Origin: a virus
Taxonomy: Duplodnaviria; Caudoviricetes
Strand: one strand, 5' to 3'
DNA: 57,799 nt
IMG/VR virus record: IMGVR_UViG_3300047560_001719
Coordinates: 1 to 57,799 of that record
The position numbers were made by a program, and so were the translations under genes. The stretch's first letter is position 1, and the number at the start of each line of letters is the position of its first letter. The notes under the pieces were generated by a model that saw only the letters and a program-made list of their open reading frames with translations, was not told the origin of the DNA and ran no database searches. Below, in pieces: positions 26,488 to 38,698 of this stretch.

Positions 26488-27996
26488 ATGGCAAATAAGT
26501 TTCAGTTAAAGCGCACGACCGTATCTGGTCGTACAGCGAACACCACCGATAGTGGTAATACATCCTTCATCGATAAAGGCGAACTCGCCGTCAACTTGGC
26601 CGACAGAAAAGTCTTCTCGTCGGACTCGTCGAATGTCATCTTCGAAGTCGGTTCCAACCTCTCATCTCTTTCAGTAGGATCTATCGTAGCCAACGGGTCG
26701 TTGGGTACTAGCGGCCAGGTACTTACTACCAATAGTAGCGGAGTATACTGGGCTACTGCGGGTGGTGGAGTAAACGCGGATCAAGTCACTTACACCTATA
26801 CGATCGCTGCTAACACCACTGTTATCACCGGTGCAGACGATGCCACTCGAACTCTGACTTATACCTCCGGACTCGAAAGCGTGTTCATCAATGGATCTCG
26901 TCAGATTTCAGGAGTTGATTATAACACTACCAACTCTGCTGCTATCACTCTTACTTCGAACGTAATAGCCGGAGAAGTCGTACAGGTCATTACATGGCAA
27001 GGTGCAGTCAACAGCGCTAACGTCGATGCTCAGTATACTTGGACTAACACTCATACTTTTAATAGTCTACTCACAGCGGCAAACAGCATATACCTCACCG
27101 GAGGAGGTGATGTTATTATTTCTTCGGCAGGAGTCGGAGGAGCTAACGCTAATACATCTTTCTATAACGATGCATCTGATCTTTATATTAACGTAAACAA
27201 TGCGATTCGTGCTTATATTGCAAGTAATGGCAACTTCGGTGTAGGCAATACTTCTCCTGCTCATAAGTTTAGAGTAGATGGGAATGTATCTTATTCTGGC
27301 ACTCTCTTTACGGCAGGCATTTCAGCGAACGGATCAGTAGGTTCTTCTGGACAGATTCTTACATCGAACGGGTCACAAGCCTACTGGCAAACACAACAGT
27401 TTCGCACTGCCGGCCAAACAGTTATTTCCGCTAACACGACTCTTGATTCGACTTATCTCGGCGAAAACATTCTTGTTGTTACAGCTGATATTACTATCAC
27501 ACTGCCATCCAGCGGTTTCGATTCAGGCACTTTGGCTTTTATCTCAAACGTCTCGGGTGGTAAAGTCAACCTATCATATGCATATGCTGGTGACGGTCCT
27601 ACTGTTCTTTATCCAAACGATAGCGTTATTCTCTGTACTGATGGTAACGGATCCTCTCTTTATTGGCGCCAGTATTCTTATACTAATACGTTACAGTTAG
27701 AACCAATAGTAGCGGTTTCTGCATTAGACGTAGACTGCTCTAAAGGAACATATTTTACTAAGACTATCGCTGCTAATAGCACGTTTACATTCTCAAACGT
27801 ACCGACGAGTGTTGCGTATAGTTTCACTCTTGAAGTAACTCATACAAGCGGTACTATTACCTGGCCTGCTGCAGTGAAATGGCCATCAGATACAGCTCCT
27901 ACTCTCACAACTGGCAAAACTCACCTGTTCATGTTTACTACTGCTAATGGTGGTACGCGTTGGAGAGGTTCAGCTCTCGTGGACTATGTAAACTAA
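26488..27996 (+). CDS. Tail fibre protein (502 aa)
   Basis: FQLKRT.V.GR.....GELAVN.AD.K.F N-terminus; ANGS.G.SGQ.LT.N....YW modules; GNFGVGNTSPAHK; C-terminal ITWP..VKWP..TAPTLT domain. Confidence 0.82.
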   Translation: MANKFQLKRTTVSGRTANTTDSGNTSFIDKGELAVNLADRKVFSSDSSNVIFEVGSNLSSLSVGSIVANGSLGTSGQVLTTNSSGVYWATAGGGVNADQVTYTYTIAANTTVITGADDATRTLTYTSGLESVFINGSRQISGVDYNTTNSAAITLTSNVIAGEVVQVITWQGAVNSANVDAQYTWTNTHTFNSLLTAANSIYLTGGGDVIISSAGVGGANANTSFYNDASDLYINVNNAIRAYIASNGNFGVGNTSPAHKFRVDGNVSYSGTLFTAGISANGSVGSSGQILTSNGSQAYWQTQQFRTAGQTVISANTTLDSTYLGENILVVTADITITLPSSGFDSGTLAFISNVSGGKVNLSYAYAGDGPTVLYPNDSVILCTDGNGSSLYWRQYSYTNTLQLEPIVAVSALDVDCSKGTYFTKTIAANSTFTFSNVPTSVAYSFTLEVTHTSGTITWPAAVKWPSDTAPTLTTGKTHLFMFTTANGGTRWRGSALVDYVN

Positions 27997-28817
27997 TGGG
28001 TAGACTCGGTAGAATGCTTATGCGAGGAGCTGCTGGTAGGCGTGGAGGTCCTGGTCAGATAGCATATACGGTTCCCGGTACATATACTTGGGTAGCTCCG
28101 GCCGGCGTGACAAGTGTATGTGTTGTCTGCGTAGGTGGTGGAAGTTCGCAAGGTGGAGGCGGGGCTCTTGCATACGGTAATGATATTGCGGTCACAGCTG
28201 GTGCATCATATACTGTTGTAGTTGGTGGCACAGACACCAATACTGGAGGACAATCGTACTTTAGTTCAACATCTCTACTTTATGCGAATGGCGGAAATAG
28301 CAATGGATCAGGTGGCACCGGGGGAGGTACAGCAAGAAATGGAGGAGGTAGCGGCGGGAATCGTGGCGCTTCTGCAAGTGCCCCAGGTGGAGGTGGAGGA
28401 GCAGGTGGTTACAGCGGTAACGGTGGAGATGGCGGGTCTGGTACCAATCCTCCGGGACTTGGAGATATCAATTGGGGTGGTGGTAGTACAGGCGGTTCTG
28501 GAGGTGCAGGAGGTGGTGGAGCCGGAGGTACTTCCCTCACTAGCGTTTCTGGAGAGTCATCATATCCAGGTGGTGCCGGTGGTGGAGTAGGGTTATTGGG
28601 TCAAGGTTCATCGGGTGCCGGTATTGCAAGCGCATATAATCAGGGTGATGGGAACCCTGGCTCGGGAGGAAGTGGTAAACTCTATGGAGGTGGAGCCGGC
28701 GGATGGGCTTATGATTATGCTGGGCGTGAGGCCTACAACGGAGGTGGTAAAGGCGCAGTTCGTATCATATGGGGTACAAACAGATCGTTTCCTTCTACAA
28801 ATACAGGTGATGTATAA
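27996..28817 (+). CDS. Glycine-rich adhesin-like protein (gp38-like polyglycine architecture, 273 aa)
   Basis: ATG 27996 is coupled to the upstream TAA (TAATG); YT.PGTYTW.APAGVTSV.VVCVGGG ... many GGGGGAGG runs ... GG.GAVRIIWG. Confidence 0.75.
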   Translation: MGRLGRMLMRGAAGRRGGPGQIAYTVPGTYTWVAPAGVTSVCVVCVGGGSSQGGGGALAYGNDIAVTAGASYTVVVGGTDTNTGGQSYFSSTSLLYANGGNSNGSGGTGGGTARNGGGSGGNRGASASAPGGGGGAGGYSGNGGDGGSGTNPPGLGDINWGGGSTGGSGGAGGGGAGGTSLTSVSGESSYPGGAGGGVGLLGQGSSGAGIASAYNQGDGNPGSGGSGKLYGGGAGGWAYDYAGREAYNGGGKGAVRIIWGTNRSFPSTNTGDV

Positions 28818-29083: not shown

Positions 29084-32000
29084 ATAATAAAAACAATTTT
29101 AGAGTCAAGAACGGGCTCACAGTAAGTAACGGGATCGTAGTAGAAGCCGGAGTTATTTCTGGTAACGGCTCTTCGATCACATCGGTCAACGCAGCTACTC
29201 TTAACGGTAACACCGCTGCTCAGCTTCGAGCTTATACTGACTCATCTATCGGTACATCCAACACTGCTATCGTAGCGAATGCTTCTGCGGCTTACACGAA
29301 CGCTGTAAGCTATACAGATACTAAAATTGGAACTGCCAACTCTGCCATCACTGGTAACGCTGCTACTGCTTATACGAACGCCACTTCGTTTGCATCGAAC
29401 GGTTCGAACATCTCGACAGGAACTGTAGCTTTCGCTCGCCTTCCTACTGTCGACTCGGTAGCTAATACATCAGTTGCATTAATCCCGACAGCCAACAACG
29501 TCAAGACTGCATACGATGCTGCTATCACAGCCAACAACAATGCTGCGTCTGCACTCACTGCGGCCGGTACAGCATACAGTAACGCTGTAACCTACACCGA
29601 CACCAAGATCGGTACGGCCAACTCTGCTATCGTAGCTAATGCATCGGCTGCTTATACTAACGCAGTTTCTTATACAGATGGCAAGATCCTAACTGCAAAC
29701 TCTGCTATTACAGGCAATGCTGCCACCGCCTACTCTAACGCGACTAGCTACACTGACACGAAGATCGGTACTGCAAACTCTGCGATGATCGCGAACGCCA
29801 GTGCAGCTTATACCAATGCTACAACCTATGCATCGAACGCTTCGAACATCTCGACAGGAACTCTTGCTTTCGCGAGACTTCCTACTGTAGACTCTGTAGC
29901 GAATACATCAGTAGCTTTGGTTCCTACTGCCAACAACGTCAAGACGGCATACGATGCAGCTATCACCGCAAATACCAATGCGCAGACAGCTTTGACTGCA
30001 GCGGGTGCAGCTTATACCAATGCAGTGAGCTACACAGATACGAAGATCGGTACTGCAAATACGGCCATGGCTGCTAACGCTGCAGCTGCTTATACAAATG
30101 CTGTCAGTTACACAGACGGTAAGATTCTAACTGCGAACTCTGCTATTACAGGCAACGCAGCTACGGCATATACCAATGCGACGACATACGCTTCGAATGC
30201 CAGCAATCTTTCTACCGGAACAGTAGCAGAAGCTCGGCTTCCATATCGTATGAACCAAAACGTTCGTACTACAGATTCTGTAGAATTTGCTGGTATCACT
30301 CTCACAGGAAACCTTGTTGTTTCAGGTAACGTGAACGTTGTCGGCGCAAATAACCTGATCGTGTCCGATAACATGATCTATCTGAACAGCAACAACGACG
30401 TCACGAACCCGGATATCGGTATCGCTGGTAACTACAACGACGGCGTGTATCACCACACGGGTATCTTCAGAGATGCCACTGACGGGTTCTGGAAAGTTTT
30501 TGATAACTATGATCCAGAACCAGACGCGAACGTGTACATCGATACTACTAACACGTCGTTCCATATCGCTGATTTCTGGGCAAATACAGCACGTATCGGT
30601 AACACATCAGTATACGCCACCATTAATACCACGACGTTTACTGGCACCGCGAACAACTCTACGTATCTTAATGGTCAACTAGCAGCTTACTATACGAATG
30701 CCACGAATATTAGTACAGGTACACTCGCAGCAGCTCGTTTACCTTCACTGTATCTCGGCACTACGACTATTCAGTCTACCAGCGCCGCGCAGGCTGTTAG
30801 CGGTATCACGACTCTTGCTGCAGGTAATACTACGATTACCGGTTTTGCAAACGTATCGGTGTCTGTTAACTCTGCTGCTCTTTCTGTCGGATCAAGCTTT
30901 GTAGCCAACACTACACAAGTAACTTATGGTATTCCACAGCTGATCAATAATAATCAGCATCTAAGATTCCAGACAGTCAACACTTCTGCATACGCATACT
31001 TTACACAGCAGAACGACGATAACTTTGTATTCTATACATCGAACACCACTTATGGCGCTCGTGCAGTATTCTCGATCTTTGCCAACAGCGTCACGAGTAC
31101 TTTTAACATCTCTCCAGGTGTTGTATTCAACGGCGGTATCTATGCTAACGGTTCGTACGGTACTTCTGGTCAAGTCCTAACAACGAATGGAACCGGAGTC
31201 TACTGGTCAACTGCATCAGCAGGTGTGAACGTCAACTCTACGTATGCTTGGACTAACACACACTCGTTTGCCGCCAACGTTACTTTTGCAAACAACATCT
31301 CTATCACTTCAGGAAACTCTTCTGTTGCTGGTGGGTTCTTGCTATTCAACGGTATAGCAGACGCTAACTGGAAGATCGGCAGAAATACCAACGGTACAAC
31401 CAAGTGGTACTACACAAACAACTCTCTTGATATCTTAGTAGCCAACTCGAACCTCGAAGGTATCGTTCTCGGTAACCCGCTCGTTAGCGGACAATCTTAC
31501 CTCGAAACTGGCCATGCCGGAACTTACATCGCAGGTAACGTAACTATCGGTAACACTTCGTCTAAATCTACCATCAACTCGACTGCGTTCTCAGGCTCTG
31601 CTAACAACTCTACATACTTTGACACAGCAACATGGGCAGCACCGAAAGCTATCGGTGGAGGCACTGCCAACTCGGGTGCTTTCACTACGGTAACTGCTAC
31701 GAGCGTTTCTGCTACTACAAACATCACCGCTACAGCAAACGTTTCGGGTGATATGGTTATCACAGCCAATAACGGTAACGGTACAAACTTCAAGGTCGGA
31801 GACGATGCTTGGATCGGAGACGTCAACCAGGCAGATACTCTTCGTATTCAAGGTCAACAGAGCGCAAACAACGCATACATCGTATTCGGCAATGCCGATA
31901 ACTCGATTAAGCTTGGCCGTGCAGGAACAGGAGCACTAACTTGGAACAGTAACTTTGCTGTTACAGGTAACGTTAACGTCAGCACTATTAATGCCACATC

Positions 32001-33918
32001 GTTCGGAGCTACGATCACGTCGAACGCTTCTGTAGCAGTCATGACGATCGGTAACTCTTCAGTGAGCTCAACCGTAAACAGCACGACGTTTACCGGCACC
32101 GCCAACAACGCTACGTATCTTAATGGTCAACTTGCTGCATACTATACCAATGCCACGAACATCACTACCGGTACTTTACCTTACGCTCAGATCCCAGCAA
32201 ACGTAATCAATACGACAGCGAACTTTACTATCTCTGGCCAGCATACCTATAATGTTGCAACGTGGGGAGTAATATTTAGAGCATCGAATACTACAAACTT
32301 CTCTGGAGCTAGATGGGAAGACACCGGTGGTACGGTTAGAGCAGGTTGGTATCGTTACGATAATTCTGATCTAACGCTGTCGACATACTATGCGAACGGT
32401 ACATATCAAGCTTCTCCTATTATTGTTTCATCAGCAACGGGAGCAGTTTCTCTTACATCGCTGTCAACGACAACCGGTACTTTCTCCGGCGCGGTTTCAG
32501 GTATTACTACTCTTGCAGCCGGTAACACTACTATTACTGGCTTTGCGAACGTATCTACTTCAGTCAACTCTGCACTGTTGACGGTTGGATCTAGCTTCAT
32601 TGCAAATACCACAGGTGCATATCATACAGGAACAGTCAACGCTGCATCTTATACAGTCGGAACAACGTTCGTTGCGAACAGTACATTCCTAACAGTAGGT
32701 ACAGCAACTCCATACAACAGCGGACTCGTTACATCATCTGCTCCCGATGGAAAACAAGCATATACTGCGCAAGTAGCCAACAATGTTTATTCACTATTCC
32801 AAGGATTCAACTCAAGCGGCGGTCTTGCTTTCCAAGTAACTGGTTCTGGATCTGTTACCGCAAACGGGTCATTGTCAGGAGTTACCACTCTTGCAGCTGG
32901 TAATACAACTATCACCGGATTCGCTAACGTTAGTGGTACCGGTGGAACGCAGCCTGCAATCGCTCTTAGAAGTGGTGTTTATGGAGCATTTGTTGTACCA
33001 CAAGCCAGTCCAGGCGCGTATAATAACTTAGTAGCTAATAATGACAATTTATTGTACTTCTCGAATGGCACTATAAACGGTGGAAATCTTGTCATTGGAT
33101 CATGGTCAGATCGTGCATCAGGCTATGGCATTAAATTTACCGGCAGTACATACGATTTAGCAGTTACTGCTAATACCCTCACTATTACTGGTAACACGAC
33201 TATTACCGGTTTCGCCAACGTAACTACTACTCTCCAGGTCGGAGGAGGCACTGCAGGTTCTCCAGCAATCACCGCTGCTACATCTACTGGCGGTGTTTCC
33301 CTGTCTCTTACAGATAGTGTTACGAGTACTCTTATCGTAAGGCATGATTCTGGATCAGGTCATCCTATTATTGGTACAAATGGTTCTGGTTTGAGACTTG
33401 CGGCTGGAGGTTCACAGTCAGGTCAAACTGCTATCACTATCATCAACAGTGGTAATACCGGTATCGGTAACACCTCTCCAGCACATAAGTTTTCAGTTAA
33501 CGGAACAACATACCTTGGAGGTATCACGACAGCTGCAGCTAACGTGGCGATGGCTAACAACTATATCGTTGCTCCTGCATTCCAAGCATACTCTGAATAC
33601 GTGTCGACGAATGCCACTGCAACTGGTGCTATCACTCTCGACCTGTCGACTTCGAACTTCTTCAACCTGACTCTGACAGGTAACATCACTCCGACGTTTA
33701 GCAACGCTCCTTCTGGTAGAATGTTCTCGTTCACGTTCGTTGCCAAGCAAGACGCGACAGGTGGTAGAACGATCACATGGCCGACAGGAACGAAATGGCC
33801 AGGCGGTGTTGCACCTCCTGCAACGACTACGGCAAACGCCATAGATATATGGTCAGTCATGACATACGACGGCGGTACTACATGGATCGCTTCACTCTCA
33901 GTTAAAAATGCGAGCTAA
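29065..33918 (+). CDS. Long tail fibre protein; reading frame open from 29065, true start codon unresolved
   Basis: Translated by hand, frame 1 is stop-free from 29065 (TRRIIINNKNNFRVKNGLTVSNG...) into the annotated ATG 29785 and carries the same repeats on both sides of that ATG. Contains YTD coiled-coil repeats, SGITTLAAGNTTITGFANVS repeats and a C-terminal ITWP...KWPGG.AP domain. Confidence 0.8.
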   Translation, partial: TRRIIINNKNNFRVKNGLTVSNGIVVEAGVISGNGSSITSVNAATLNGNTAAQLRAYTDSSIGTSNTAIVANASAAYTNAVSYTDTKIGTANSAITGNAATAYTNATSFASNGSNISTGTVAFARLPTVDSVANTSVALIPTANNVKTAYDAAITANNNAASALTAAGTAYSNAVTYTDTKIGTANSAIVANASAAYTNAVSYTDGKILTANSAITGNAATAYSNATSYTDTKIGTANSAMIANASAAYTNATTYASNASNISTGTLAFARLPTVDSVANTSVALVPTANNVKTAYDAAITANTNAQTALTAAGAAYTNAVSYTDTKIGTANTAMAANAAAAYTNAVSYTDGKILTANSAITGNAATAYTNATTYASNASNLSTGTVAEARLPYRMNQNVRTTDSVEFAGITLTGNLVVSGNVNVVGANNLIVSDNMIYLNSNNDVTNPDIGIAGNYNDGVYHHTGIFRDATDGFWKVFDNYDPEPDANVYIDTTNTSFHIADFWANTARIGNTSVYATINTTTFTGTANNSTYLNGQLAAYYTNATNISTGTLAAARLPSLYLGTTTIQSTSAAQAVSGITTLAAGNTTITGFANVSVSVNSAALSVGSSFVANTTQVTYGIPQLINNNQHLRFQTVNTSAYAYFTQQNDDNFVFYTSNTTYGARAVFSIFANSVTSTFNISPGVVFNGGIYANGSYGTSGQVLTTNGTGVYWSTASAGVNVNSTYAWTNTHSFAANVTFANNISITSGNSSVAGGFLLFNGIADANWKIGRNTNGTTKWYYTNNSLDILVANSNLEGIVLGNPLVSGQSYLETGHAGTYIAGNVTIGNTSSKSTINSTAFSGSANNSTYFDTATWAAPKAIGGGTANSGAFTTVTATSVSATTNITATANVSGDMVITANNGNGTNFKVGDDAWIGDVNQADTLRIQGQQSANNAYIVFGNADNSIKLGRAGTGALTWNSNFAVTGNVNVSTINATSFGATITSNASVAVMTIGNSSVSSTVNSTTFTGTANNATYLNGQLAAYYTNATNITTGTLPYAQIPANVINTTANFTISGQHTYNVATWGVIFRASNTTNFSGARWEDTGGTVRAGWYRYDNSDLTLSTYYANGTYQASPIIVSSATGAVSLTSLSTTTGTFSGAVSGITTLAAGNTTITGFANVSTSVNSALLTVGSSFIANTTGAYHTGTVNAASYTVGTTFVANSTFLTVGTATPYNSGLVTSSAPDGKQAYTAQVANNVYSLFQGFNSSGGLAFQVTGSGSVTANGSLSGVTTLAAGNTTITGFANVSGTGGTQPAIALRSGVYGAFVVPQASPGAYNNLVANNDNLLYFSNGTINGGNLVIGSWSDRASGYGIKFTGSTYDLAVTANTLTITGNTTITGFANVTTTLQVGGGTAGSPAITAATSTGGVSLSLTDSVTSTLIVRHDSGSGHPIIGTNGSGLRLAAGGSQSGQTAITIINSGNTGIGNTSPAHKFSVNGTTYLGGITTAAANVAMANNYIVAPAFQAYSEYVSTNATATGAITLDLSTSNFFNLTLTGNITPTFSNAPSGRMFSFTFVAKQDATGGRTITWPTGTKWPGGVAPPATTTANAIDIWSVMTYDGGTTWIASLSVKNAS
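29079..29086 (+). promoter_or_regulatory. T4-type late promoter TATAAATA
   Basis: Exact consensus overlapping the TAA at 29081-29083. Confidence 0.75.
29230..30240 (+). repeat. 26-aa Ala/Thr/Asn coiled-coil repeats (AYTNAVSYTDTKIGTANSAITGNAAT) within a larger 438-bp-spaced duplication
   Basis: Six full 26-aa units plus a partial one; the block starting AYTNAT(S/T)(F/Y)ASN..NISTGT.AFARLPTVDSVANTSVAL occurs at 29368 and 29806. Confidence 0.85.
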
Positions 33919-33921
33919 TCG

Positions 33922-35601
33922 ATGGGTATTGGTGGCGGTTCTAAATTTACATTAGAAAAAACATGGCGTGGATCTGGAACGGGAACTACTAAGTTCAACT
34001 CTCCGGGTAACATCGCTATTCCTTATGGTCGTAACAGCATCTACGTTTCAGGGCAGGGTGGTTCTGGGAACGCGCTCGTTCCAGGACCAGGAACTGGTAC
34101 TTACAACGTTATTCCTGGTAATGCGACCGGTACTTACAACATTATTCCAGGAAATGCTACTGGAACCTACAACATCGTTCCTGGTAACATCTCGACTTAC
34201 AATATCATTCCTGGTCCAGTGGCTACGTACAACATCATCTATCCAGTAGCTACATACAACATCATCTATCCAGGAACTGGTACATACAACATTATCTATC
34301 CAGGAACTGGAACCTATAATATCGTTCCAGGTAATGCTACTGGTGCTTATAACATTATTCCAGGAAATGCTACTGGCATCTACAACAAAATTGCCGGTAA
34401 TATAGCTACATACAACATCATCTATCCAGGAACCGGCACGTACAATATCGTTCCAGGTAATGCTACTGGAACCTACAATATCATTCCAGGCAATGCTACT
34501 GGTATCTACAACAAGATTCCCGGTAATATAGCTACATACAATATCATCTATCCAGGAACTGGTACATATAACATCGTTCCGGGTAATGTCGTTTCTTACA
34601 ACGTCACATATCCAGGAACCGGTACTTACAATAAGATCCCAGGTAACGTAGTAAGTTACAACATCGTTCCCGGTAATGTCTCTACGTATAACGTCATTCC
34701 GGGTAACGGTACTTACTACCCTCCGTATCCTGGATTTCAAAATTACTATTATTCTCCGAAGTACGGTGGTCCTGTACTAGACTTCTTTTATAATGCCCCA
34801 ACGCCCGGTTTTGTAGGTGCACCTTATAACGCTCCGACCGGTGGTCCTGCAAACTACAACGCTGCAACAAACGGGCCCGCGAACTACAACGCTGCAACAA
34901 ATGGTCCTCAGAACTACAACGTAGCGAACGGACCTGCAAACTACAACGCTGCAACAAATGGTCCTCAAAACTACAACGTAGCCAATGGTCCGGCTAACTA
35001 CAATGCGCCTACTAACGGCCCGACTAACTATAATGCTGCGACAAATGGTCCGCAGAACTACAATGCACCTACCAACGGTCCTCAAAACTACAACGTAGCC
35101 AATGGTCCGGCTAACTACAATGCACCTACCAATGGTCCGACTAACTACAATGCGCCTACTAACGGTCCTCAAAACTACAACCCTGCTACCAATGGTCCGC
35201 AGAACTATAACGTAGCGAACGGTCCTCAAAACTATAACGTAGCCAATGGTCCTGCAAACTATAATGTAGCGAACGGCCCTGCGAACTACAATGCTCCGAC
35301 GAACGGCCCTGCGAACTACAATCCAGCTACCAACGGTCCACAGAACTACAATCCAGCTACCAACGGTCCTCAGAACTATAACCCAGCAACAGCTGGTCCG
35401 CAGAACTATAATACTCCTACTCCAGCAGTTGCAGGTAACCCATCTTCTGCTCTTGGAATCACTTTCCCTGGGTCAAACGTCGGAGGTACACCTGCTCCTG
35501 TTATAAGTAATCAGCTGGCAAGCTACTACTCATACCCAGATGGTCAAACGCATTCGGTAACGGTAGCTCCCGGAGGTTATATCGACATTACCATTCAATA
35601 A
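33922..35601 (+). CDS. Pro/Asn/Tyr/Gly-rich two-arm repeat protein (559 aa), probable fibre-associated adhesin or spike
   Basis: 20 TYN(I/V)(I/V)(PGN/YP)-type repeats, an aromatic centre, then 20 NGP(Q/A/T)NYN-type repeats. The flanks (KFNSPGNIAIPYGRNSIYVSGQGGSG ... GGYIDITI) resemble the ends of the Gly-rich adhesin at 27996. Confidence 0.8.
   Translation: MGIGGGSKFTLEKTWRGSGTGTTKFNSPGNIAIPYGRNSIYVSGQGGSGNALVPGPGTGTYNVIPGNATGTYNIIPGNATGTYNIVPGNISTYNIIPGPVATYNIIYPVATYNIIYPGTGTYNIIYPGTGTYNIVPGNATGAYNIIPGNATGIYNKIAGNIATYNIIYPGTGTYNIVPGNATGTYNIIPGNATGIYNKIPGNIATYNIIYPGTGTYNIVPGNVVSYNVTYPGTGTYNKIPGNVVSYNIVPGNVSTYNVIPGNGTYYPPYPGFQNYYYSPKYGGPVLDFFYNAPTPGFVGAPYNAPTGGPANYNAATNGPANYNAATNGPQNYNVANGPANYNAATNGPQNYNVANGPANYNAPTNGPTNYNAATNGPQNYNAPTNGPQNYNVANGPANYNAPTNGPTNYNAPTNGPQNYNPATNGPQNYNVANGPQNYNVANGPANYNVANGPANYNAPTNGPANYNPATNGPQNYNPATNGPQNYNPATAGPQNYNTPTPAVAGNPSSALGITFPGSNVGGTPAPVISNQLASYYSYPDGQTHSVTVAPGGYIDITIQ
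34072..34692 (+). repeat. N-arm: 20 coding repeats of about 27-33 bp ending in Tyr-Asn
   Basis: Counted by splitting the translation at each YN. Confidence 0.92.
34831..35412 (+). repeat. C-arm: 20 coding repeats of 27-30 bp ending in Asn-Tyr-Asn
   Basis: Counted by splitting the translation at each YN; includes a 47-bp exact DNA repeat at 34960 and 35077. Confidence 0.92.
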
Positions 35602-35623: not shown

Positions 35624-36217
35624 ATGCCATATAATATTCCTAAGTACGGGAAACAACTGAATTGTTTTGCGGTGTGGTCCGGAGGATTTACTTCAGAAGA
35701 AGTCGATAAGATCATTGATCTCGAACGACTTCAAACATTTGAAAAAGGAAAAGTTGGTTTTGATAAGAATGCTGCTGCGCCCGCTGAGACACGAGACTCA
35801 GACGTATCCTGGATTCATCACGATCAACACAGCGACTGGCTTTTCAATCGTATGGCCGGTATCACGTCTATCGTCAACTACGATAACTTCATGTACAACA
35901 TCGATGGAGTCGATGCGTTTCAGTACACGAAGTATGGACCAAACCAGCACTATACTTGGCACTGGGATGTAGAGTTCGGCTGGCAAAAATGGGTTCGAAA
36001 GATCTCGGCTGTTCTGTTACTCTCTGATCCTGATGAGTATGAAGGTGGAGAACTTGAGATCGTTAACACTGGAAACCTCGAAGACAAAGTTTCCTTTAAA
36101 CCGAACAAAGGTGATATCGTATACTTCGCTTCGTGGATGCCGCATCGTGTTGCTCCGGTAACTTCTGGTCTTCGTAGAAGTCTTGTAGCATGGATAATGG
36201 GTGAAAGAGAATGTTGA
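35624..36217 (+). CDS. 2OG-Fe(II) oxygenase, prolyl-4-hydroxylase/PKHD-like
   Basis: HxD (WHWD), RKIS..LLLSDP.EYEGGEL, distal His in F.SW.PHRV.PVT.G.R.SLV.W. Confidence 0.9.
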   Translation: MPYNIPKYGKQLNCFAVWSGGFTSEEVDKIIDLERLQTFEKGKVGFDKNAAAPAETRDSDVSWIHHDQHSDWLFNRMAGITSIVNYDNFMYNIDGVDAFQYTKYGPNQHYTWHWDVEFGWQKWVRKISAVLLLSDPDEYEGGELEIVNTGNLEDKVSFKPNKGDIVYFASWMPHRVAPVTSGLRRSLVAWIMGEREC

Positions 36218-36948
36218 GTTGGAATCCTTTTAAGAAAAAGCCTATCATCGAGTTTTATTGTCATCGAGACGATGTAGCCACTCTTCCTCAGCCTCGACCG
36301 GCAGCAAAGTACATACCGGAATGGTACAAGAGAATTCCACCTGTGATCAATGATGGTAATAACGACCGCGATCAATACGGAGCTCGAACCTTTACAGCCA
36401 AGAAGTGCATGCCAATGTTGGATGCGATGTCTCTTGGATATGTTATTCCCTTGATATCAGATCTTTCAGTTAGGTCAAATCATGATTGTAGCACGATCGA
36501 AGTCACATCTTCTCCACATATCAACGTTTGCGAGTTCCATGACATTCGCCAACTCGGAGAGAGAACTGCTCCTGGATTCCCAGCTCCTCCTCTTAAATTC
36601 ATCAATCCGTGGATCGTGAAGACCGCTCCGGGTTGGTCGACGCTGTTTATGCCGCTTATTAACAATATGGAAAGCCACTTTACTTGTCTTTCTGGTCTGG
36701 TTGATACAGATACCTATCCAAAGGAAGTTAACTTCCCGGCTGTTTGGCACACACCAAACTTTGATGATTTGCTTCCAGCTGGTACTCCCCTTGTAGTAGC
36801 TATTCCGGTCAAGAGAGATGCAATTCCGACAAAACCGGTAGTACGTGACATGACAGATAAAGAATTTGATAAAGTCAATCTTATTACGAAGATGCAGAAC
36901 ACACGTAGAAAAGTTTATACTGATGAATTGAGAGCACCTAGAAAATGA
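36211..36948 (+). CDS. Conserved phage protein of unknown function (DUF6065-like), paralog 1
   Basis: PEWYK, T.KKC.P.LDAM..GY.IP, KF.NPW.VKT.PG.S.LF, G.VDTD.Y...VNFP, GTPL...IP.KR; family name recalled, not searched. Confidence 0.6.
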   Translation: MLSWNPFKKKPIIEFYCHRDDVATLPQPRPAAKYIPEWYKRIPPVINDGNNDRDQYGARTFTAKKCMPMLDAMSLGYVIPLISDLSVRSNHDCSTIEVTSSPHINVCEFHDIRQLGERTAPGFPAPPLKFINPWIVKTAPGWSTLFMPLINNMESHFTCLSGLVDTDTYPKEVNFPAVWHTPNFDDLLPAGTPLVVAIPVKRDAIPTKPVVRDMTDKEFDKVNLITKMQNTRRKVYTDELRAPRK

Positions 36949-37685
36949 AGAATCCATTTACATCATGGTTTAAACCGCAAAAAGATCTCGAATTTGTAGA
37001 TACTACTCGCCTTACGTATCATAACTTTACGGTCGAAAGAGCGTGCGATGTCAAAGCAAACACGTATCGCCATCAACTTGATACGTATGGAAAACATATG
37101 ATGCCGGGTTGTCCAGGAATCCTCGACTACTCTCAGTATGGGTATATTATTCCTGCATGGGTAGACATCCATATTTTTGCAAACAAAGCAGGAGTTTCCT
37201 GGCGCATAGGAGATGGTGCAGCTCGTGGAGATAGAGGGTTTGCAAACGGAAATCCTATGGATTATAGGTTGATAGACGGAGCCTTCGAAGTCGAAGATGT
37301 TCCTCCTACGGCTATTCTATTTCCATCTCCTTGGAAAATCTTTGCACATAAAAATATCAGTGCAATGGTAATGCCTGCAACGTATCATGGTTCTCATTTT
37401 GAAGATTTACATGTTATTCCAGGAATAGTTGACTACAACAAGTTTCATGCAGTCAATTTTATTTGTATGCCGCGACGATCTTGCGAAGTTCATATTAAAG
37501 CCGGAGAACCGCTTCTTCATGTCATGCCGTTTTTAAATAAGTCTATTACAGCGTCGGTCGGTCCAGGCACAGAAGAGCAGGTAGATAAAGCAAAGAACAT
37601 GATTCCGGGTGATGACGAGCAATACTATCGAAAGTTCATGAGAACAAAAAAGATTTTTAAGATAAACAAAGAGAGTGAGCAATGA
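36945..37685 (+). CDS. Conserved phage protein of unknown function, paralog 2 of the preceding gene
   Basis: CPGILDY..YGYIIPAW.D, F.SPW.I, PGIVDY..F..VNF and IKAGEPL..V.P align by eye with 36211-36948; ATGA coupling. Confidence 0.6.
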   Translation: MKNPFTSWFKPQKDLEFVDTTRLTYHNFTVERACDVKANTYRHQLDTYGKHMMPGCPGILDYSQYGYIIPAWVDIHIFANKAGVSWRIGDGAARGDRGFANGNPMDYRLIDGAFEVEDVPPTAILFPSPWKIFAHKNISAMVMPATYHGSHFEDLHVIPGIVDYNKFHAVNFICMPRRSCEVHIKAGEPLLHVMPFLNKSITASVGPGTEEQVDKAKNMIPGDDEQYYRKFMRTKKIFKINKESEQ

Positions 37686-38698
37686 ATATTTTTGTTTCGA
37701 TCTGTTCTTACCAAGATCCATTACTGCCACATACTATCAAGAGTATGATGCAGACCAAATCTAATAGAAACAACGTCGTGTACTCGATCTTCGAACAGAC
37801 TCGTTATGAGGATTCTCTTGCATGCACAGAACCTGTATTAGTAGGTCGTGAAGACGTTATCTACAAAAGAATTGATCCTGAGTATTCGGACGGATGTGTG
37901 TGGGCAAGATACGTCAACATGTTGAACGTTACTGACGAGTTCGATTTCATCTATCAGATCGATTCGCATATTCTGCACGATCAGCATTGGGATCGCGCGC
38001 TGATCGAAGATTATAAGAGAGCGTTGGATATATCTGGAACAAACAAGATCATCATCACGGGATCGTGTAAAGGTTTCAACATCTCTGAAGAAGATGACGA
38101 GATAAAGACTTATTTGATTGAACAAGAAGATCTATCTTGTAAAGTAGGGTACTACACAATCGATCCTGAAACTCTCATTCCAGTAGTGCACGGAGATTCT
38201 TTTCCTGCAACCGAAATGCCTCAGCCGGCATTTCATATCATGGCAGGCAACTTCTTTACTCACAAAGATTGGGTAGATAATGTCGGCTTAAATCCAAAAA
38301 TCTTCTTCGAAGGCGAAGAAGTAATGATGGCAATGATGTCGTATGCAGCTGGCTATAAGATGTTCCATCACAGTAAGATGGTTTCTTATCACCTAGCTGA
38401 TACAAAGACTTGGCATACAAAGAACAATGTAGTCGAACCAGCAGGTGCACGCCGTAGGCAAAGACTTTCTGAGATCGGTCGACTTGAATGGAGGAAATAC
38501 TTAGATACATGTCGTGAAGATATGCTAGAAGCTTTCCATCAAGAGTTCGGAATCGATTTTATTAATCTTGAAATCGCAGAGAGTGCCCGAACATACAGCT
38601 TAGACACTCCAGGTAAAGCAAATCATTTTACTGAATTCAAGAAGGTTCCAGAAGAAAACCAACTTCCTCCTGCTCTGTTTATGAAAGACGATGAATGA
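37682..38698 (+). CDS. Glycosyltransferase resembling Skp1-hydroxyproline GlcNAc-transferase (GT60 / Pfam GlcNAc)
   Basis: IFVSI.SY.D..L..TI, G..WAR, QIDSH.....WD..LI (DSH metal motif), AGNFF and FFEGEE match the GT60 pattern. Confidence 0.8.
   Translation: MNIFVSICSYQDPLLPHTIKSMMQTKSNRNNVVYSIFEQTRYEDSLACTEPVLVGREDVIYKRIDPEYSDGCVWARYVNMLNVTDEFDFIYQIDSHILHDQHWDRALIEDYKRALDISGTNKIIITGSCKGFNISEEDDEIKTYLIEQEDLSCKVGYYTIDPETLIPVVHGDSFPATEMPQPAFHIMAGNFFTHKDWVDNVGLNPKIFFEGEEVMMAMMSYAAGYKMFHHSKMVSYHLADTKTWHTKNNVVEPAGARRRQRLSEIGRLEWRKYLDTCREDMLEAFHQEFGIDFINLEIAESARTYSLDTPGKANHFTEFKKVPEENQLPPALFMKDDE

What the first reader, a model, noticed from the sequence alone, without database searches (positions are those of the whole stretch)
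33922..35601. A protein 'palindrome': two different 20-unit repeat arms ordered as an exact mirror-image complementary code
Seen in sequence: splitting at YN gives 20 N-arm units (N1-N20) and 20 C-arm units (C1-C20) around a non-repetitive centre. Pairing Ni with C(21-i), the unit endings correspond 20 out of 20. Every 3-residue ending (IST, VAT, IAT, VVS, VST: N4,5,6,11,15,17,19,20) faces GPAN. Every xTG(T/A) ending (N1,2,3,7,8,9,12,13,16,18) faces GPQN. The only two ATGI endings (N10, N14) face the only two GPTN. Unit beginnings correspond too, pairing Ni with C(22-i): all six short xxYP starts (N6,7,8,12,16,18) match all six short VAN starts (C16,15,14,10,6,4), and all other starts (xx(P/A)G(N/P)) match APT/AAT/PAT starts. 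The arms are neither similar to each other nor reverse-complementary in DNA. Inference: the chain runs out about 200 residues and returns antiparallel in strict register, forming a long zipper or needle whose pairing rules act like base-pairing. I do not know of a described phage protein with this architecture.
Basis: partly seen in the sequence, partly recalled or inferred. Interest (0 to 1): 0.97.

Follow-up and report, generated by a model that had tools for sequence, protein, structure and literature searches.

The report
Fold-back phage fibre with pairing code
A tail-fibre-module protein of an uncultured T4-like phage has two different repeat arms whose unit variants match in exact mirror order, and its relatives show the same thing with other motifs, so the chain very probably doubles back on itself in strict register to form a rod of adjustable length.

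Summary
ORF 33922-35601 (559 aa) splits at YN into 20 + 20 units. The unit endings correspond 20 of 20 in mirror order; every other register or orientation gives 10 of 20 or fewer (exact p 1.2e-7, or 1e-5 after collapsing a duplicated block).

It is not a DNA inverted repeat. It belongs to a family without Pfam, PHROG, PDB or cultured-phage match: 217 cluster representatives, 121 full-length proteins and 42 further cores from viral contigs. All members share conserved N- and C-terminal segments around a variable core of 56-790 aa.

Relatives carry the same mirror complementarity in other alphabets:
- L004: 31 of 31 (p 4e-9).
- xNYN blocks never face each other in 32 of 34 proteins.
- 11-mer units face 10-mer units.
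- P0056 has 3+3 units and P0044 has 6+6.
- The non-repeat knob sits at the core midpoint.

Best reading: a fold-back needle or adhesin, architecturally like the T4 gp37 tip. It would be attached by its joined termini to the upstream fibre, with the variable tip distal and the irregular unit order fixing the register.

No structure supports this yet. An intermolecular antiparallel pairing cannot be excluded.

The parts
33922..35601 (+). ORF of 559 aa (P0001), a member of an undescribed family defined by conserved N- and C-terminal segments around a variable repeat core
   Evidence: family; no Pfam, PHROG or NCBIfam family
33922..34074 (+). conserved N-terminal segment (aa 1-51), proposed to form half of the base domain
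   Evidence: HMM hit E 1.5e-24; AlphaFold2 pLDDT 83-96 for about aa 20-55, three strands
34075..34692 (+). N arm: 20 units of 9-11 aa ending in YN (aa 52-257), rich in Ile and Val
   Evidence: period-126 tandem block at 34281-34588
34693..34830 (+). non-repeat aromatic centre (aa 258-303), the proposed distal tip
   Evidence: the knob lies at the core midpoint across the family
34831..35412 (+). C arm: 20 units of 9-10 aa ending in YN (aa 304-497), Asn/Ala/Pro-rich with no Ile, Leu or Phe
   Evidence: period-117 tandem block at 34927-35225
35413..35598 (+). conserved C-terminal segment (aa 498-559), proposed to form the other half of the base domain
   Evidence: HMM hit E 1.2e-23; AlphaFold2 pLDDT 91-95 over most of it, dipping to 66 at aa 531-540, five strands
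29785..33918 (+). upstream fibre protein of 1377 aa whose C-terminal domain (phrog_9017) ends 3 nt before the ORF; proposed attachment partner
   Evidence: a homologous C-terminal domain ORF ends directly upstream in 31 of 43 viral loci with room
35624..36217 (+). 2OG-Fe(II) oxygenase (PF13640; PKHD-type hydroxylase-like), conserved neighbour and possible modifier of the arms
   Evidence: a homologue lies directly downstream in 39 of 40 loci with room
37682..38698 (+). PF11397 'Glycosyltransferase (GlcNAc)' protein of the same conserved cassette
   Evidence: E 3.7e-24; present within 6 kb in 24 of 31 loci with room

Best explanation
P0001 is a structural protein of the tail-fibre module that folds back on itself. 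The conserved N- and C-terminal segments come together as one base domain. The N arm runs out, the non-repeat centre forms the distal tip, and the C arm returns antiparallel. Unit Ni then lies against unit C(21-i) along the whole length.

The arms are built from a few unit variants that fit only particular partners: a one-residue Gly bulge opposite Gln or Thr, no bulge opposite Ala, and a short start opposite a short start. Because these variants come in an irregular order, only one register satisfies all pairs. The order therefore acts as a vernier that sets the register and lets the rod's length change only by paired gain or loss of units.

The rod most probably works as a needle or adhesin. 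It would be docked by its base to the C-terminal domain of the upstream fibre protein and present the hypervariable tip to the host.

Shown: the mirror complementarity, its generality in the family, the equal arms and the synteny.
Inferred: pairing within one chain, the oligomer state (probably a trimer, with the Ile/Val-rich N arms inside and the Asn-rich C arms outside), the geometry, the attachment and the receptor-binding role.
For: 1. Window gene: the endings match 20 of 20 only in the mirror register, and the starts match 19 of 19. Exact p is 1.2e-7; block-aware p is 9.7e-6.

2. Matched duplications. The N8-11/N12-15 block (110 of 126 nt identical) has a counterpart at exactly the mirror position, C6-9/C10-13 (97 of 117 nt).

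3. It is not a DNA inverted repeat, either in the window gene or in L004.

4. Family architecture. Of 178 proteins held, 121 carry both terminal domains around cores of 56-550 aa. Adding the viral contigs gives 162 distinct cores of 56-790 aa.

5. The knob is centred. The N/(N+C) flank ratio lies within 0.4-0.6 in 51 of 75 representatives with a knob call, against 15 expected if the position were uniform (KS p 4e-5).

6. Paired unit numbers with unlike arms. P0056 has 3+3 and P0044 has 6+6. P0057 has the two unit types swapped between the arms.

7. Other alphabets:
- L004 (33% identical) shows S/P mirror complementarity in 31 of 31. The parallel reading gives 7 of 31, other registers at most 15 of 30, and 0 of 5000 shuffles reach it (exact p 3.8e-9).
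- P0073 shows 4 of 4.
- 11-mer against 10-mer units in mixed-arm proteins: 128 of 165 complementary in mirror reading, 103 of 165 in parallel, shuffles 107 +/- 4.8 (0 of 5000). Examples are P0042 9 of 9, P0057 6 of 6 and P0103 5 of 5.
- xNYN blocks in 34 proteins: 10 facing positions in mirror reading, 231 in parallel, 285 expected from shuffles; exactly 0 in 32 of 34.
- A 4-mer faces a 4-mer in 3 of 531 cases in mirror reading and 76 of 539 in parallel. Double blocks face 19-mers in 207 of 250.
- In the 7/8/8-mer subfamily, mirror mutual information exceeds parallel clearly in 3 of 6 proteins, slightly in 2 more, and marginally not in 1 (L011, 0.33 against 0.34).

8. AlphaFold2 is confident only for about aa 20-55 and 495-559, all beta strands.

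9. Context. The gene lies in a baseplate and fibre module. The cassette order is fixed: fibre, then 1-4 family genes, then the oxygenase.

10. The N arm has 32 Ile and 15 Val, whereas the C arm has 6 Val and no Ile, Leu or Phe. That fits an inside/outside arrangement in an oligomer.
Against: - There is no structural evidence. AlphaFold2 with a 37-row alignment gave pLDDT 30-40 and no secondary structure in the arms. Foldseek found nothing (best E 3.7).
- Whether the two termini touch in the model could not be read from the output.
- The start classes also fit a parallel reading at 16 of 18.
- A test on the order of unit lengths did not favour mirror over forward: mirror better in 29, forward better in 38, equal in 25 of 92. 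In many members the arms are direct repeats of each other; in L004 the forward DNA score is 212 against 19.
- Restricted to 50%-cluster representatives, the 11-mer/10-mer test is weak: 57 of 76 against 53 of 76, with 220 of 5000 shuffles as good.
- Exceptions exist: P0029 1 of 4, P0030 0 of 3, P0041 0 of 3 and P0040 2 of 4; P0043 and P0051 have non-zero xNYN overlap; single xNYN blocks face 18-20-mers in 94 of 276 cases; 24 of 75 flank ratios lie outside 0.4-0.6 (with a crude knob caller).
- Many of the viral-contig proteins are related, so counts per protein are not independent.
- The split forms in L010 and L043 have unequal halves.
Confidence: 0.7

Rival explanations
1. The arms pair antiparallel, but between chains. 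The N arm of one chain lies on the C arm of another chain running the other way. This gives a two-fold symmetric rod with a base domain (N of one chain plus C of the other) at each end and the knobs in the middle.
For: This arrangement predicts exactly the same covariation as a hairpin: Ni with C(21-i), equal arms and a centred knob. Members without any knob exist, such as P0073 and P0056. In L010 and L043 the protein is encoded as two ORFs, so arms on separate chains are possible.
Against: A bipolar rod would bury the hypervariable part in its middle and show the same conserved domain at both ends. That does not fit a fibre that must bind the virion at one end and the host at the other (inference). 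AlphaFold2, run on a single chain, is confident for both terminal segments, which suggests that they fold together within one chain, though the contact was not seen.
Confidence: 0.12
2. Each arm folds on its own, as a solenoid or triple beta-helix along a linear fibre. The mirror order is then a by-product of how the repeats were duplicated, or chance.
For: Short Asn/Tyr/Pro/Gly repeats are typical of solenoids. In many relatives the arms are direct repeats of each other. The start classes nearly fit a parallel reading, 16 of 18. tblastn found a weak likeness of the C arm to pentapeptide-repeat proteins of Caulobacter phages (26% identity, E 1e-11).
Against: Chance is excluded. No single duplication mechanism yields mirror-ordered, non-homologous arms, and no inverted DNA repeat is present. 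Matching duplications occur at mirror positions. Unit numbers are equal in arms of different unit type across relatives. Units of 7-8 aa are too short for a coil of their own (inference). The Caulobacter proteins sit among small early genes, not in a fibre module.
Confidence: 0.06
3. The core is an extended, largely unstructured Pro/Asn-rich stalk. It would be hydroxylated and glycosylated by the neighbouring enzymes, like an extensin or mucin, with no specific pairing between the arms.
For: The oxygenase and the GlcNAc-type glycosyltransferase are conserved next to the gene. The arms are rich in X-Pro-Gly motifs. AlphaFold2 and the ESM Atlas give low confidence. There is a weak Extensin_1 hit, 26 bits against a cut-off of 105.
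Against: An unstructured stalk gives no reason for mirror complementarity, equal arms or register-keeping insertions. Modification and pairing are not exclusive.
Confidence: 0.05
4. The repeat arrays are an assembly artefact of a metagenomic contig.
For: Logan contigs of run X1 cover the gene only in 8 pieces that break at repeats, so the copy number is not independently bridged. X1 and X2 may also be the source sample.
Against: All 8 pieces fit with 0 differences and at even depth, apart from two short pieces (31 and 47 nt) at repeat junctions that stand at about twice the depth. A mis-joined array would destroy a 20 of 20 mirror code, not create one. The same architecture recurs on dozens of independent contigs.
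Confidence: 0.02

Closest known systems
Receptor-binding tip of the T4 long tail fibre protein gp37 (needle, head and collar; Bartual et al. 2010, seen only through the description in PMC9659904, and a passage in PMC6957217)
   Same: The chain runs out to a distal head and returns, so that a trimer gives a six-stranded antiparallel needle. The variable receptor-binding part is at the far end. The gene lies in the fibre module of a T4-like phage.
   Different: No sequence relation: a PDB profile search found nothing at E up to 1. The gp37 needle is held by iron ions bound by histidines, whereas P0001 has a single His and no HxH motif. The gp37 needle is short and is not built of repeat units with a complementary order. 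Here the arms range from about 20 to about 360 residues and change by paired units.
gp38 adhesins of T2- and S16-type phages (passage in PMC6851490)
   Same: A separate small protein encoded next to the distal fibre gene that caps the fibre. It is built of Gly-rich motifs interspersed with variable segments, and host range is set by the variable parts.
   Different: gp38 is a single chain with a polyglycine sandwich, not two mirror-ordered arms. No Pfam or sequence hit links the two. Whether P0001 caps the upstream fibre has not been tested.
Fold-back arms of SMC, Rad50 and MukB proteins (recalled, from no call)
   Same: The N- and C-terminal segments join into one head. A long intramolecular antiparallel arm of matched length carries a distinct domain at the far end, and interruptions in one strand are matched in the other.
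   Different: Those arms are alpha-helical coiled coils in ATPases that act on DNA. Here the arms are Pro/Gly/Asn/Tyr repeats with no predicted helices, in a virion fibre module.
Beta-solenoid and pentapeptide-repeat proteins
   Same: Short tandem units with regularly spaced Asn and aromatic residues. tblastn shows a weak likeness of the C arm to annotated pentapeptide-repeat proteins of Caulobacter phages.
   Different: No Pfam pentapeptide hit. The C arm has no Leu, Phe, Ile or Met for the central position of that repeat. Units of 7-11 aa occur in two complementary arrays, and the genomic context differs.
Collagen-like and hydroxyproline-rich structural proteins with their prolyl 4-hydroxylases (passage in PMC9301287)
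   Same: X-Pro-Gly motifs lie next to a 2OG-Fe(II) hydroxylase gene. The role of viral P4H-like genes is described there as cryptic.
   Different: There are no Gly-X-Y triplets. Hydroxylation is only a hypothesis here.

Membership tests
The undescribed family itself (conserved N- and C-terminal segments around a repeat core) | Both terminal segments are present and match profiles built from relatives | tested here: met
   The window ORF matches the N profile at E 1.5e-24 and the C profile at E 1.2e-23, and is the only such ORF in the window. 121 of 178 held proteins have both segments.
The undescribed family itself | Two arms of about equal length with mirror-ordered complementary unit variants | tested here: met
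   20 of 20 in the window gene. Equal flanks in 51 of 75 representatives. 31 of 31 in L004. 32 of 34 xNYN proteins have zero overlap. Exceptions are listed.
T4 gp37-type needle tip | Detectable sequence relation to gp37 tips or any solved chain | tested here: not met
   A profile of 121 members against 177,635 PDB sequences gave no hit at E up to 1. Foldseek on the model gave a best E of 3.7 (the model has low confidence).
T4 gp37-type needle tip | Histidine motifs that bind iron along the needle axis | tested here: not met
   P0001 has one His (in ..GQTHSV..) and none in the arms. The role of His and iron is taken from the passage in PMC6957217.
T4 gp37-type needle tip | Homotrimer with three outgoing and three returning strands | not testable with these tools
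Pentapeptide repeat proteins (Pfam Pentapeptide families) | Pfam match and a central hydrophobic residue (Leu or Phe) in each pentapeptide | tested here: not met
   A Pfam scan at E up to 0.1 lists only Extensin_1 (26 bits, cut-off 105) and DUF2793. The C arm is composed only of N, A, P, G, Y, T, Q and V. The consensus itself is recalled.
gp38-type adhesins | Polyglycine-II sandwich built from Gly-rich motifs, and an N-terminal domain that binds the gp37 tip | not tested
   No family or sequence hit. The fold could not be modelled.
Collagen-like proteins | Uninterrupted Gly-X-Y triplets | tested here: not met
   The units are 9-11 aa long with Gly at irregular spacing.

The most novel reading that the evidence does not exclude
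This may be a natural protein-level pairing code. A widespread family of phage fibre proteins would build a fold-back rod from two arrays of short units that recognise each other pairwise, with at least four interchangeable alphabets:
- bulged or unbulged YN units opposite Q/T or A;
- ..SYN opposite ..YPY;
- GGNxAGxN 11-mers opposite PGNAxYN 10-mers;
- xNYN blocks opposite 14- or 19-mers.

The irregular order of the variants would program a unique register. Rod length would be tuned from a few nanometres to roughly 100 nm by paired insertion of units. The fixed neighbouring hydroxylase and GlcNAc-type transferase would modify the X-Pro-Gly arms, which would give the abundant and so far unexplained P4H-like genes of aquatic phages a structural substrate.
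Probability: 0.4. Interest if true: 0.93.

Novelty: new variant of a known kind. Interest (0 to 1): 0.86.

Why it matters
If the arms pair as the sequences indicate, this is a rare case in which the three-dimensional register of a long repetitive protein can be read directly from its sequence, and in which evolution must change two distant parts of a gene together.

- It offers a natural, modular design for rods of programmable length and register.
- It predicts how fibre length and the host-binding tip vary in a large group of uncultured T4-like phages from aquatic metagenomes.
- It defines a family that no database names.
- It makes a concrete proposal for the substrate of phage-encoded 2OG-Fe(II) hydroxylases, whose role one paper calls cryptic (PMC9301287).
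- It raises an evolutionary question: how do paired duplications at mirror positions arise and become fixed?

Tried and rejected
DNA-level origin. An inverted duplication read in another frame was tested and rejected for the window gene and for L004. The 16-21 nt inverted matches follow from Gly/Pro and Val/Ala/Thr codons being each other's reverse complements (my own derivation).

Unit-length order test. Smith-Waterman alignment of the N arm against the reversed or the forward C arm did not discriminate: 29, 38 and 25 of 92. Many arms are periodic or are direct repeats of each other.

Second null. The version with permuted partners had a coding slip: numerator and denominator were permuted separately. 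I do not use it.

Structure.
- AlphaFold2 of P0001 left the arms unmodelled.
- Foldseek against the PDB found nothing.
- The ESM Atlas returned only low scores: features at most 0.80, TM at most 0.23.
- A trimer job and a second fold of the minimal member P0056 (alignment A2) could not be run.

Searches without result.
- tblastn of P0001, P0005, P0034 and P0073 against 50,697 GenBank phage records found no family member. The only hits were pentapeptide-repeat proteins of Caulobacter phages in an unrelated context.
- Pfam and PHROGs gave nothing for six further members.
- Literature searches turned up no description of such a protein. A search for tyrosine-asparagine + repeat + phage + fiber returned 0 papers.
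Tail-fibre atlases such as PMC12143355 may list related models there that I could not see.

Reads. Contigs of X1 and X2 tile the gene without differences but do not bridge the repeats, and they may come from the source sample. In X4, which is 90-95% alike, short low-depth contigs skip 260 nt in the N arm and 267 or 181 nt in the C arm. In repeats these may be mapping artefacts, and I draw nothing from them. The promoter and terminator scan was below the chance level.
Full report
WHAT IS THERE

The window is a whole viral record of 57,799 bases, estimated 34% complete. It carries the baseplate and fibre module of a T4-like myovirus. The module includes gp6-, gp7- and gp8-like wedge proteins and several fibre proteins. 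The gp6-like protein is closest to those of Caulobacter phage Cr30 (38%), Sinorhizobium phage phiM12 and Methylophilales phage Melnitz, so the host is unknown.

ORF 33922-35601 encodes 559 residues. It starts 3 nt after a 1377-aa fibre protein whose C-terminal domain matches phrog_9017. A 2OG-Fe(II) oxygenase follows it.

THE OBSERVATION

The three ending classes of the N arm correspond to the three classes of the C arm in 20 of 20 pairs Ni/C(21-i). No other antiparallel offset exceeds 8 of 19, and no parallel reading exceeds 10 of 20.

- The exact probability of that order is 1.2e-7.
- 5,000,000 numpy shuffles gave 1 full match against 0.6 expected.
- An earlier 1,000,000 Python shuffles gave 3, more than expected. 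I note this without an explanation.

The start classes match 19 of 19 at Ni/C(22-i), including all six short units. A parallel reading at offset -2 also reaches 16 of 18, so this second feature is less decisive.

The shift by one between endings and starts means that the contiguous N segment ending(i-1)-YN-start(i) lies opposite one whole C unit. That is what an antiparallel pairing with staggered YN motifs would give (my reading).

The units are not all independent. N8-11 and N12-15 are a duplicate (110 of 126 nt), and so are C6-9 and C10-13 (97 of 117 nt), at exactly the mirror position. With that block collapsed, p is 9.7e-6 for the endings and 2.3e-4 for the starts. The matched duplication is itself evidence that the arms are coupled.

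NOT A DNA EFFECT

The N arm and the reverse complement of the C arm align no better than shuffled controls. Only 16-21 nt GPVAT/VANGP inverted matches exist.

Independent contigs of one run cover the gene in 8 pieces without a single difference. They break at the repeats, and the run may be the source sample. A mis-assembly would not create a perfect mirror code.

A FAMILY

No Pfam, PHROG or NCBIfam model fits, and no PDB sequence does. tblastn with four members found no relative in 50,697 GenBank phage records.

In metagenomic protein collections the family is large:
- 36 relatives in the word-indexed search.
- 217 cluster representatives at E up to 0.001 in the exhaustive profile search.
- Of the 178 proteins held, 121 have both the conserved N-terminal segment (..LEKTW..GT.TFN.PGN..PYG..) and the conserved C-terminal segment (..LGV.FPGG...YPD...V.VP.GG.V.I), around a core of 56 to 550 residues.
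- 49 viral-contig loci added 42 further distinct cores of up to 790 residues.

The cores are 15% Asn, 12% Tyr, 12% Pro, 11% Ala and 11% Thr.

DO RELATIVES KEEP EQUAL, MIRROR-ORDERED ARMS?

(a) The knob is centred. The non-repeat, knob-like residues lie at the midpoint of the core. Their centre of mass deviates by a median of 0.042 core lengths in 99 proteins. The flank ratio N/(N+C) is within 0.4-0.6 in 51 of 75 representatives with a knob call, against 15 expected for a random position (KS p 4e-5).

(b) Unit numbers are paired. In the subfamily closest to P0001 by its termini, the arms are built of two unit types, an 11-mer (..GGNxAGxN) and a 10-mer (..PGNAxYN). P0056 has 3 + 3 units and P0044 has 6 + 6. 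P0057 has the types on the opposite arms, and P0075 has 4 + 4. Where an arm is mixed, the odd unit faces the odd unit of the other arm in mirror order: P0042 9 of 9, P0057 6 of 6, P0103 5 of 5.
- Over 35 mixed-arm proteins, complementarity is 128 of 165 in mirror reading and 103 of 165 in parallel, with shuffles at 107 +/- 4.8 (0 of 5000).
- With cluster representatives only, the effect is weak: 57 of 76 against 53 of 76, and 220 of 5000 shuffles are as good.
- P0029, P0030, P0041 and P0040 go against it.

(c) L004 has a two-letter code. The gene at L004:7998-9839, 33% identical to P0001, has 7-residue units of two kinds..SYN and ..YPY. Read from the two bases, all 31 of 31 pairs are of unlike kind. 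The parallel reading gives 7 of 31, any other register at most 15 of 30, and none of 5000 shuffles reaches it (exact p 3.8e-9). The minimal member P0073 shows 4 of 4.

(d) xNYN blocks never face each other. In 34 proteins with xNYN 4-mer blocks and long units, the blocks of the two arms face each other at 10 positions in all in the mirror reading. The figure is 231 in the parallel reading and 285 expected after shuffling word order; 32 of the 34 have exactly zero. Double blocks face 19-mers in 207 of 250 cases. Single blocks face 13-16-mers in 149 of 276 cases and 18-20-mers in 94. A 4-mer faces a 4-mer in 3 of 531 cases, against 76 of 539 in parallel. An extra xNYN in one arm is thus answered by about five extra residues in the other, over arms of up to 360 residues.

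(e) The 7/8/8-mer subfamily. The mutual information between facing unit classes is clearly higher in mirror than in parallel reading in 3 of 6 proteins and slightly higher in 2 more. In 1 (L011) it is marginally lower, 0.33 against 0.34.

(f) One test failed to discriminate. Aligning the orders of unit lengths gave mirror better in 29, forward better in 38 and equal in 25 of 92. Many arms are periodic or are direct repeats of each other. In L004 the arms also share direct DNA repeats. That is compatible with pairing only because words such as S-P are their own mirror complement.

Many of the contig proteins are related, so these counts overstate the independent evidence. The alphabets and the orders differ between them, however.

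STRUCTURE

AlphaFold2 on P0001 with 37 sequences gave a mean pLDDT of 47. Only residues of about 20-55 and 495-559 are confident (pLDDT above 90 for most, dipping to 66 at 531-540), with three and five beta strands. The arms stay at 30-40 with no secondary structure.

- Foldseek found nothing, and the ESM Atlas nothing useful.
- The output does not tell whether the two termini touch.
- A trimer job was not available.

The geometry is therefore open. If the strands are extended, 200-residue arms would make a rod of roughly 60 nm. If the two arms wind together as a helix, the rod would be far shorter. Both figures are inference.

The N arm carries 32 Ile and 15 Val, while the C arm has 6 Val and no other large hydrophobic residue. 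This suggests an oligomer with the N arms inside and the C arms outside (inference).

MOST LIKELY MECHANISM

The best-supported reading is a fold-back rod.
- The joined termini form the base.
- The variable centre forms the distal tip.
- The arms are zipped in a register that the irregular order of complementary unit variants fixes. Slipping by one unit drops the matches from 20 of 20 to 8 of 19 in P0001, and from 31 of 31 to 12-13 of about 30 in L004.

The conserved position directly after a fibre protein with a conserved C-terminal domain (31 of 43 loci), the one to four tandem copies, and the hypervariable cores fit a distal adhesin or needle that docks on that fibre.

The closest described architecture is the T4 gp37 tip, a six-stranded antiparallel needle with a head at the end (passage in PMC9659904; iron and histidines in PMC6957217). 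It shares neither sequence nor the histidine motifs. The gp38 adhesins (PMC6851490) are a functional analogue. The fold-back arms of SMC and Rad50 are a recalled architectural analogue.

An antiparallel pairing between chains gives the same covariation and remains the main rival.

NOVELTY

The out-and-back needle is a known kind. What I found described nowhere (searches; supplements not seen) is:
- a family-wide, alphabet-changing mirror complementarity between two repeat arrays;
- rods that lengthen by paired units;
- the family as such.

I rate it a new variant of a known kind. There is a substantial chance that the pairing code is something new in its own right.

SEEN IN PASSING

The gene is part of a fixed cassette: fibre, then 1-4 family genes, then a 2OG-Fe(II) oxygenase (39 of 40 loci), then DUF6065 and a paralogue, then a PF11397 GlcNAc-type glycosyltransferase (24 of 31 loci). 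The oxygenase is closest to PKHD-type hydroxylases.

From memory, PF13640 includes prolyl 4-hydroxylases, and PF11397 is the family of the transferase that puts GlcNAc on the hydroxyproline of Skp1. The arms are full of X-Pro-Gly motifs. A paper on aquatic viruses calls the role of their P4H genes cryptic (PMC9301287). Hydroxylation and glycosylation of these arms is an untested but concrete hypothesis.

Noticed in passing
window 35624-38698; loci L002-L047: There is a fixed cassette downstream of the family gene. It runs: 2OG-Fe(II) oxygenase (PF13640, PKHD-hydroxylase-like), DUF6065, a paralogous 246-aa protein, then a PF11397 'Glycosyltransferase (GlcNAc)' protein. The oxygenase lies directly downstream in 39 of 40 viral loci with room, and the transferase within 6 kb in 24 of 31. 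Idea: the X-Pro-Gly-rich arms are hydroxylated and glycosylated. The family functions are recalled, not tested.
   Followed up: partly
L010:7980-11581 and L043:6256-10202 (similar N-only and C-only ORF pairs in L009, L011, L012, L017): In several viral contigs a family member is encoded as two abutting ORFs. The first ends in a Hint/intein-like domain (PF01079 E 4e-7, PF14890 E 7e-7), and the second starts at the overlapping TAATG and carries the C-terminal segment. This could be an autoprocessing or split form, and the two halves are unequal in length.
   Followed up: partly
L013, L018, L022, L007, L008, L016, L020, L024, L028, L031 (two copies); L027:6736-11650 (four copies): Family genes occur as tandem paralogues with different cores between the same fibre gene and the same oxygenase gene. 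This is the pattern expected of exchangeable host-range cassettes.
   Followed up: no
window 26488-27996 and 29785-33918: Two fibre proteins of the window share the phrog_9017-like C-terminal domain. Only the second is followed by a family gene. The first is followed by a phrog_4474 protein of unknown function (27960-28817).
   Followed up: no
window 29785-33918: The 1377-aa fibre protein itself carries repeated ..AAYTNA(T/V)(T/S)Y(A/T).. and ..TGTL..ARLP.. motifs and several repeated ..LAAGNTTITGFANVS.. blocks. This is another repetitive fibre, and I did not analyse it.
   Followed up: no
window 34038-34299, 34992-35260, 35189-35371 (run X4): Short low-depth contigs of a 90-95% similar relative from another study skip about 260 nt in the N arm and 267 or 181 nt in the C arm. 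This could be a natural variant with both arms shortened, or a mapping artefact in repeats.
   Followed up: no
window 34208-34228 with 34976-34991, 35093-35108 and 35237-35257: There are 16-21 nt inverted matches between the GPVAT codons of unit N5 and the VANGP codons of C units. They are explained by Gly/Pro and Val/Ala/Thr codons being reverse complements of each other, and there is no wider inverted repeat.
   Followed up: yes
(script): One million Python shuffles gave 3 full matches where 0.12 were expected. Five million numpy shuffles gave 1 where 0.6 were expected. The excess in the first run is unexplained, and the exact combinatorial value is used instead.
   Followed up: partly
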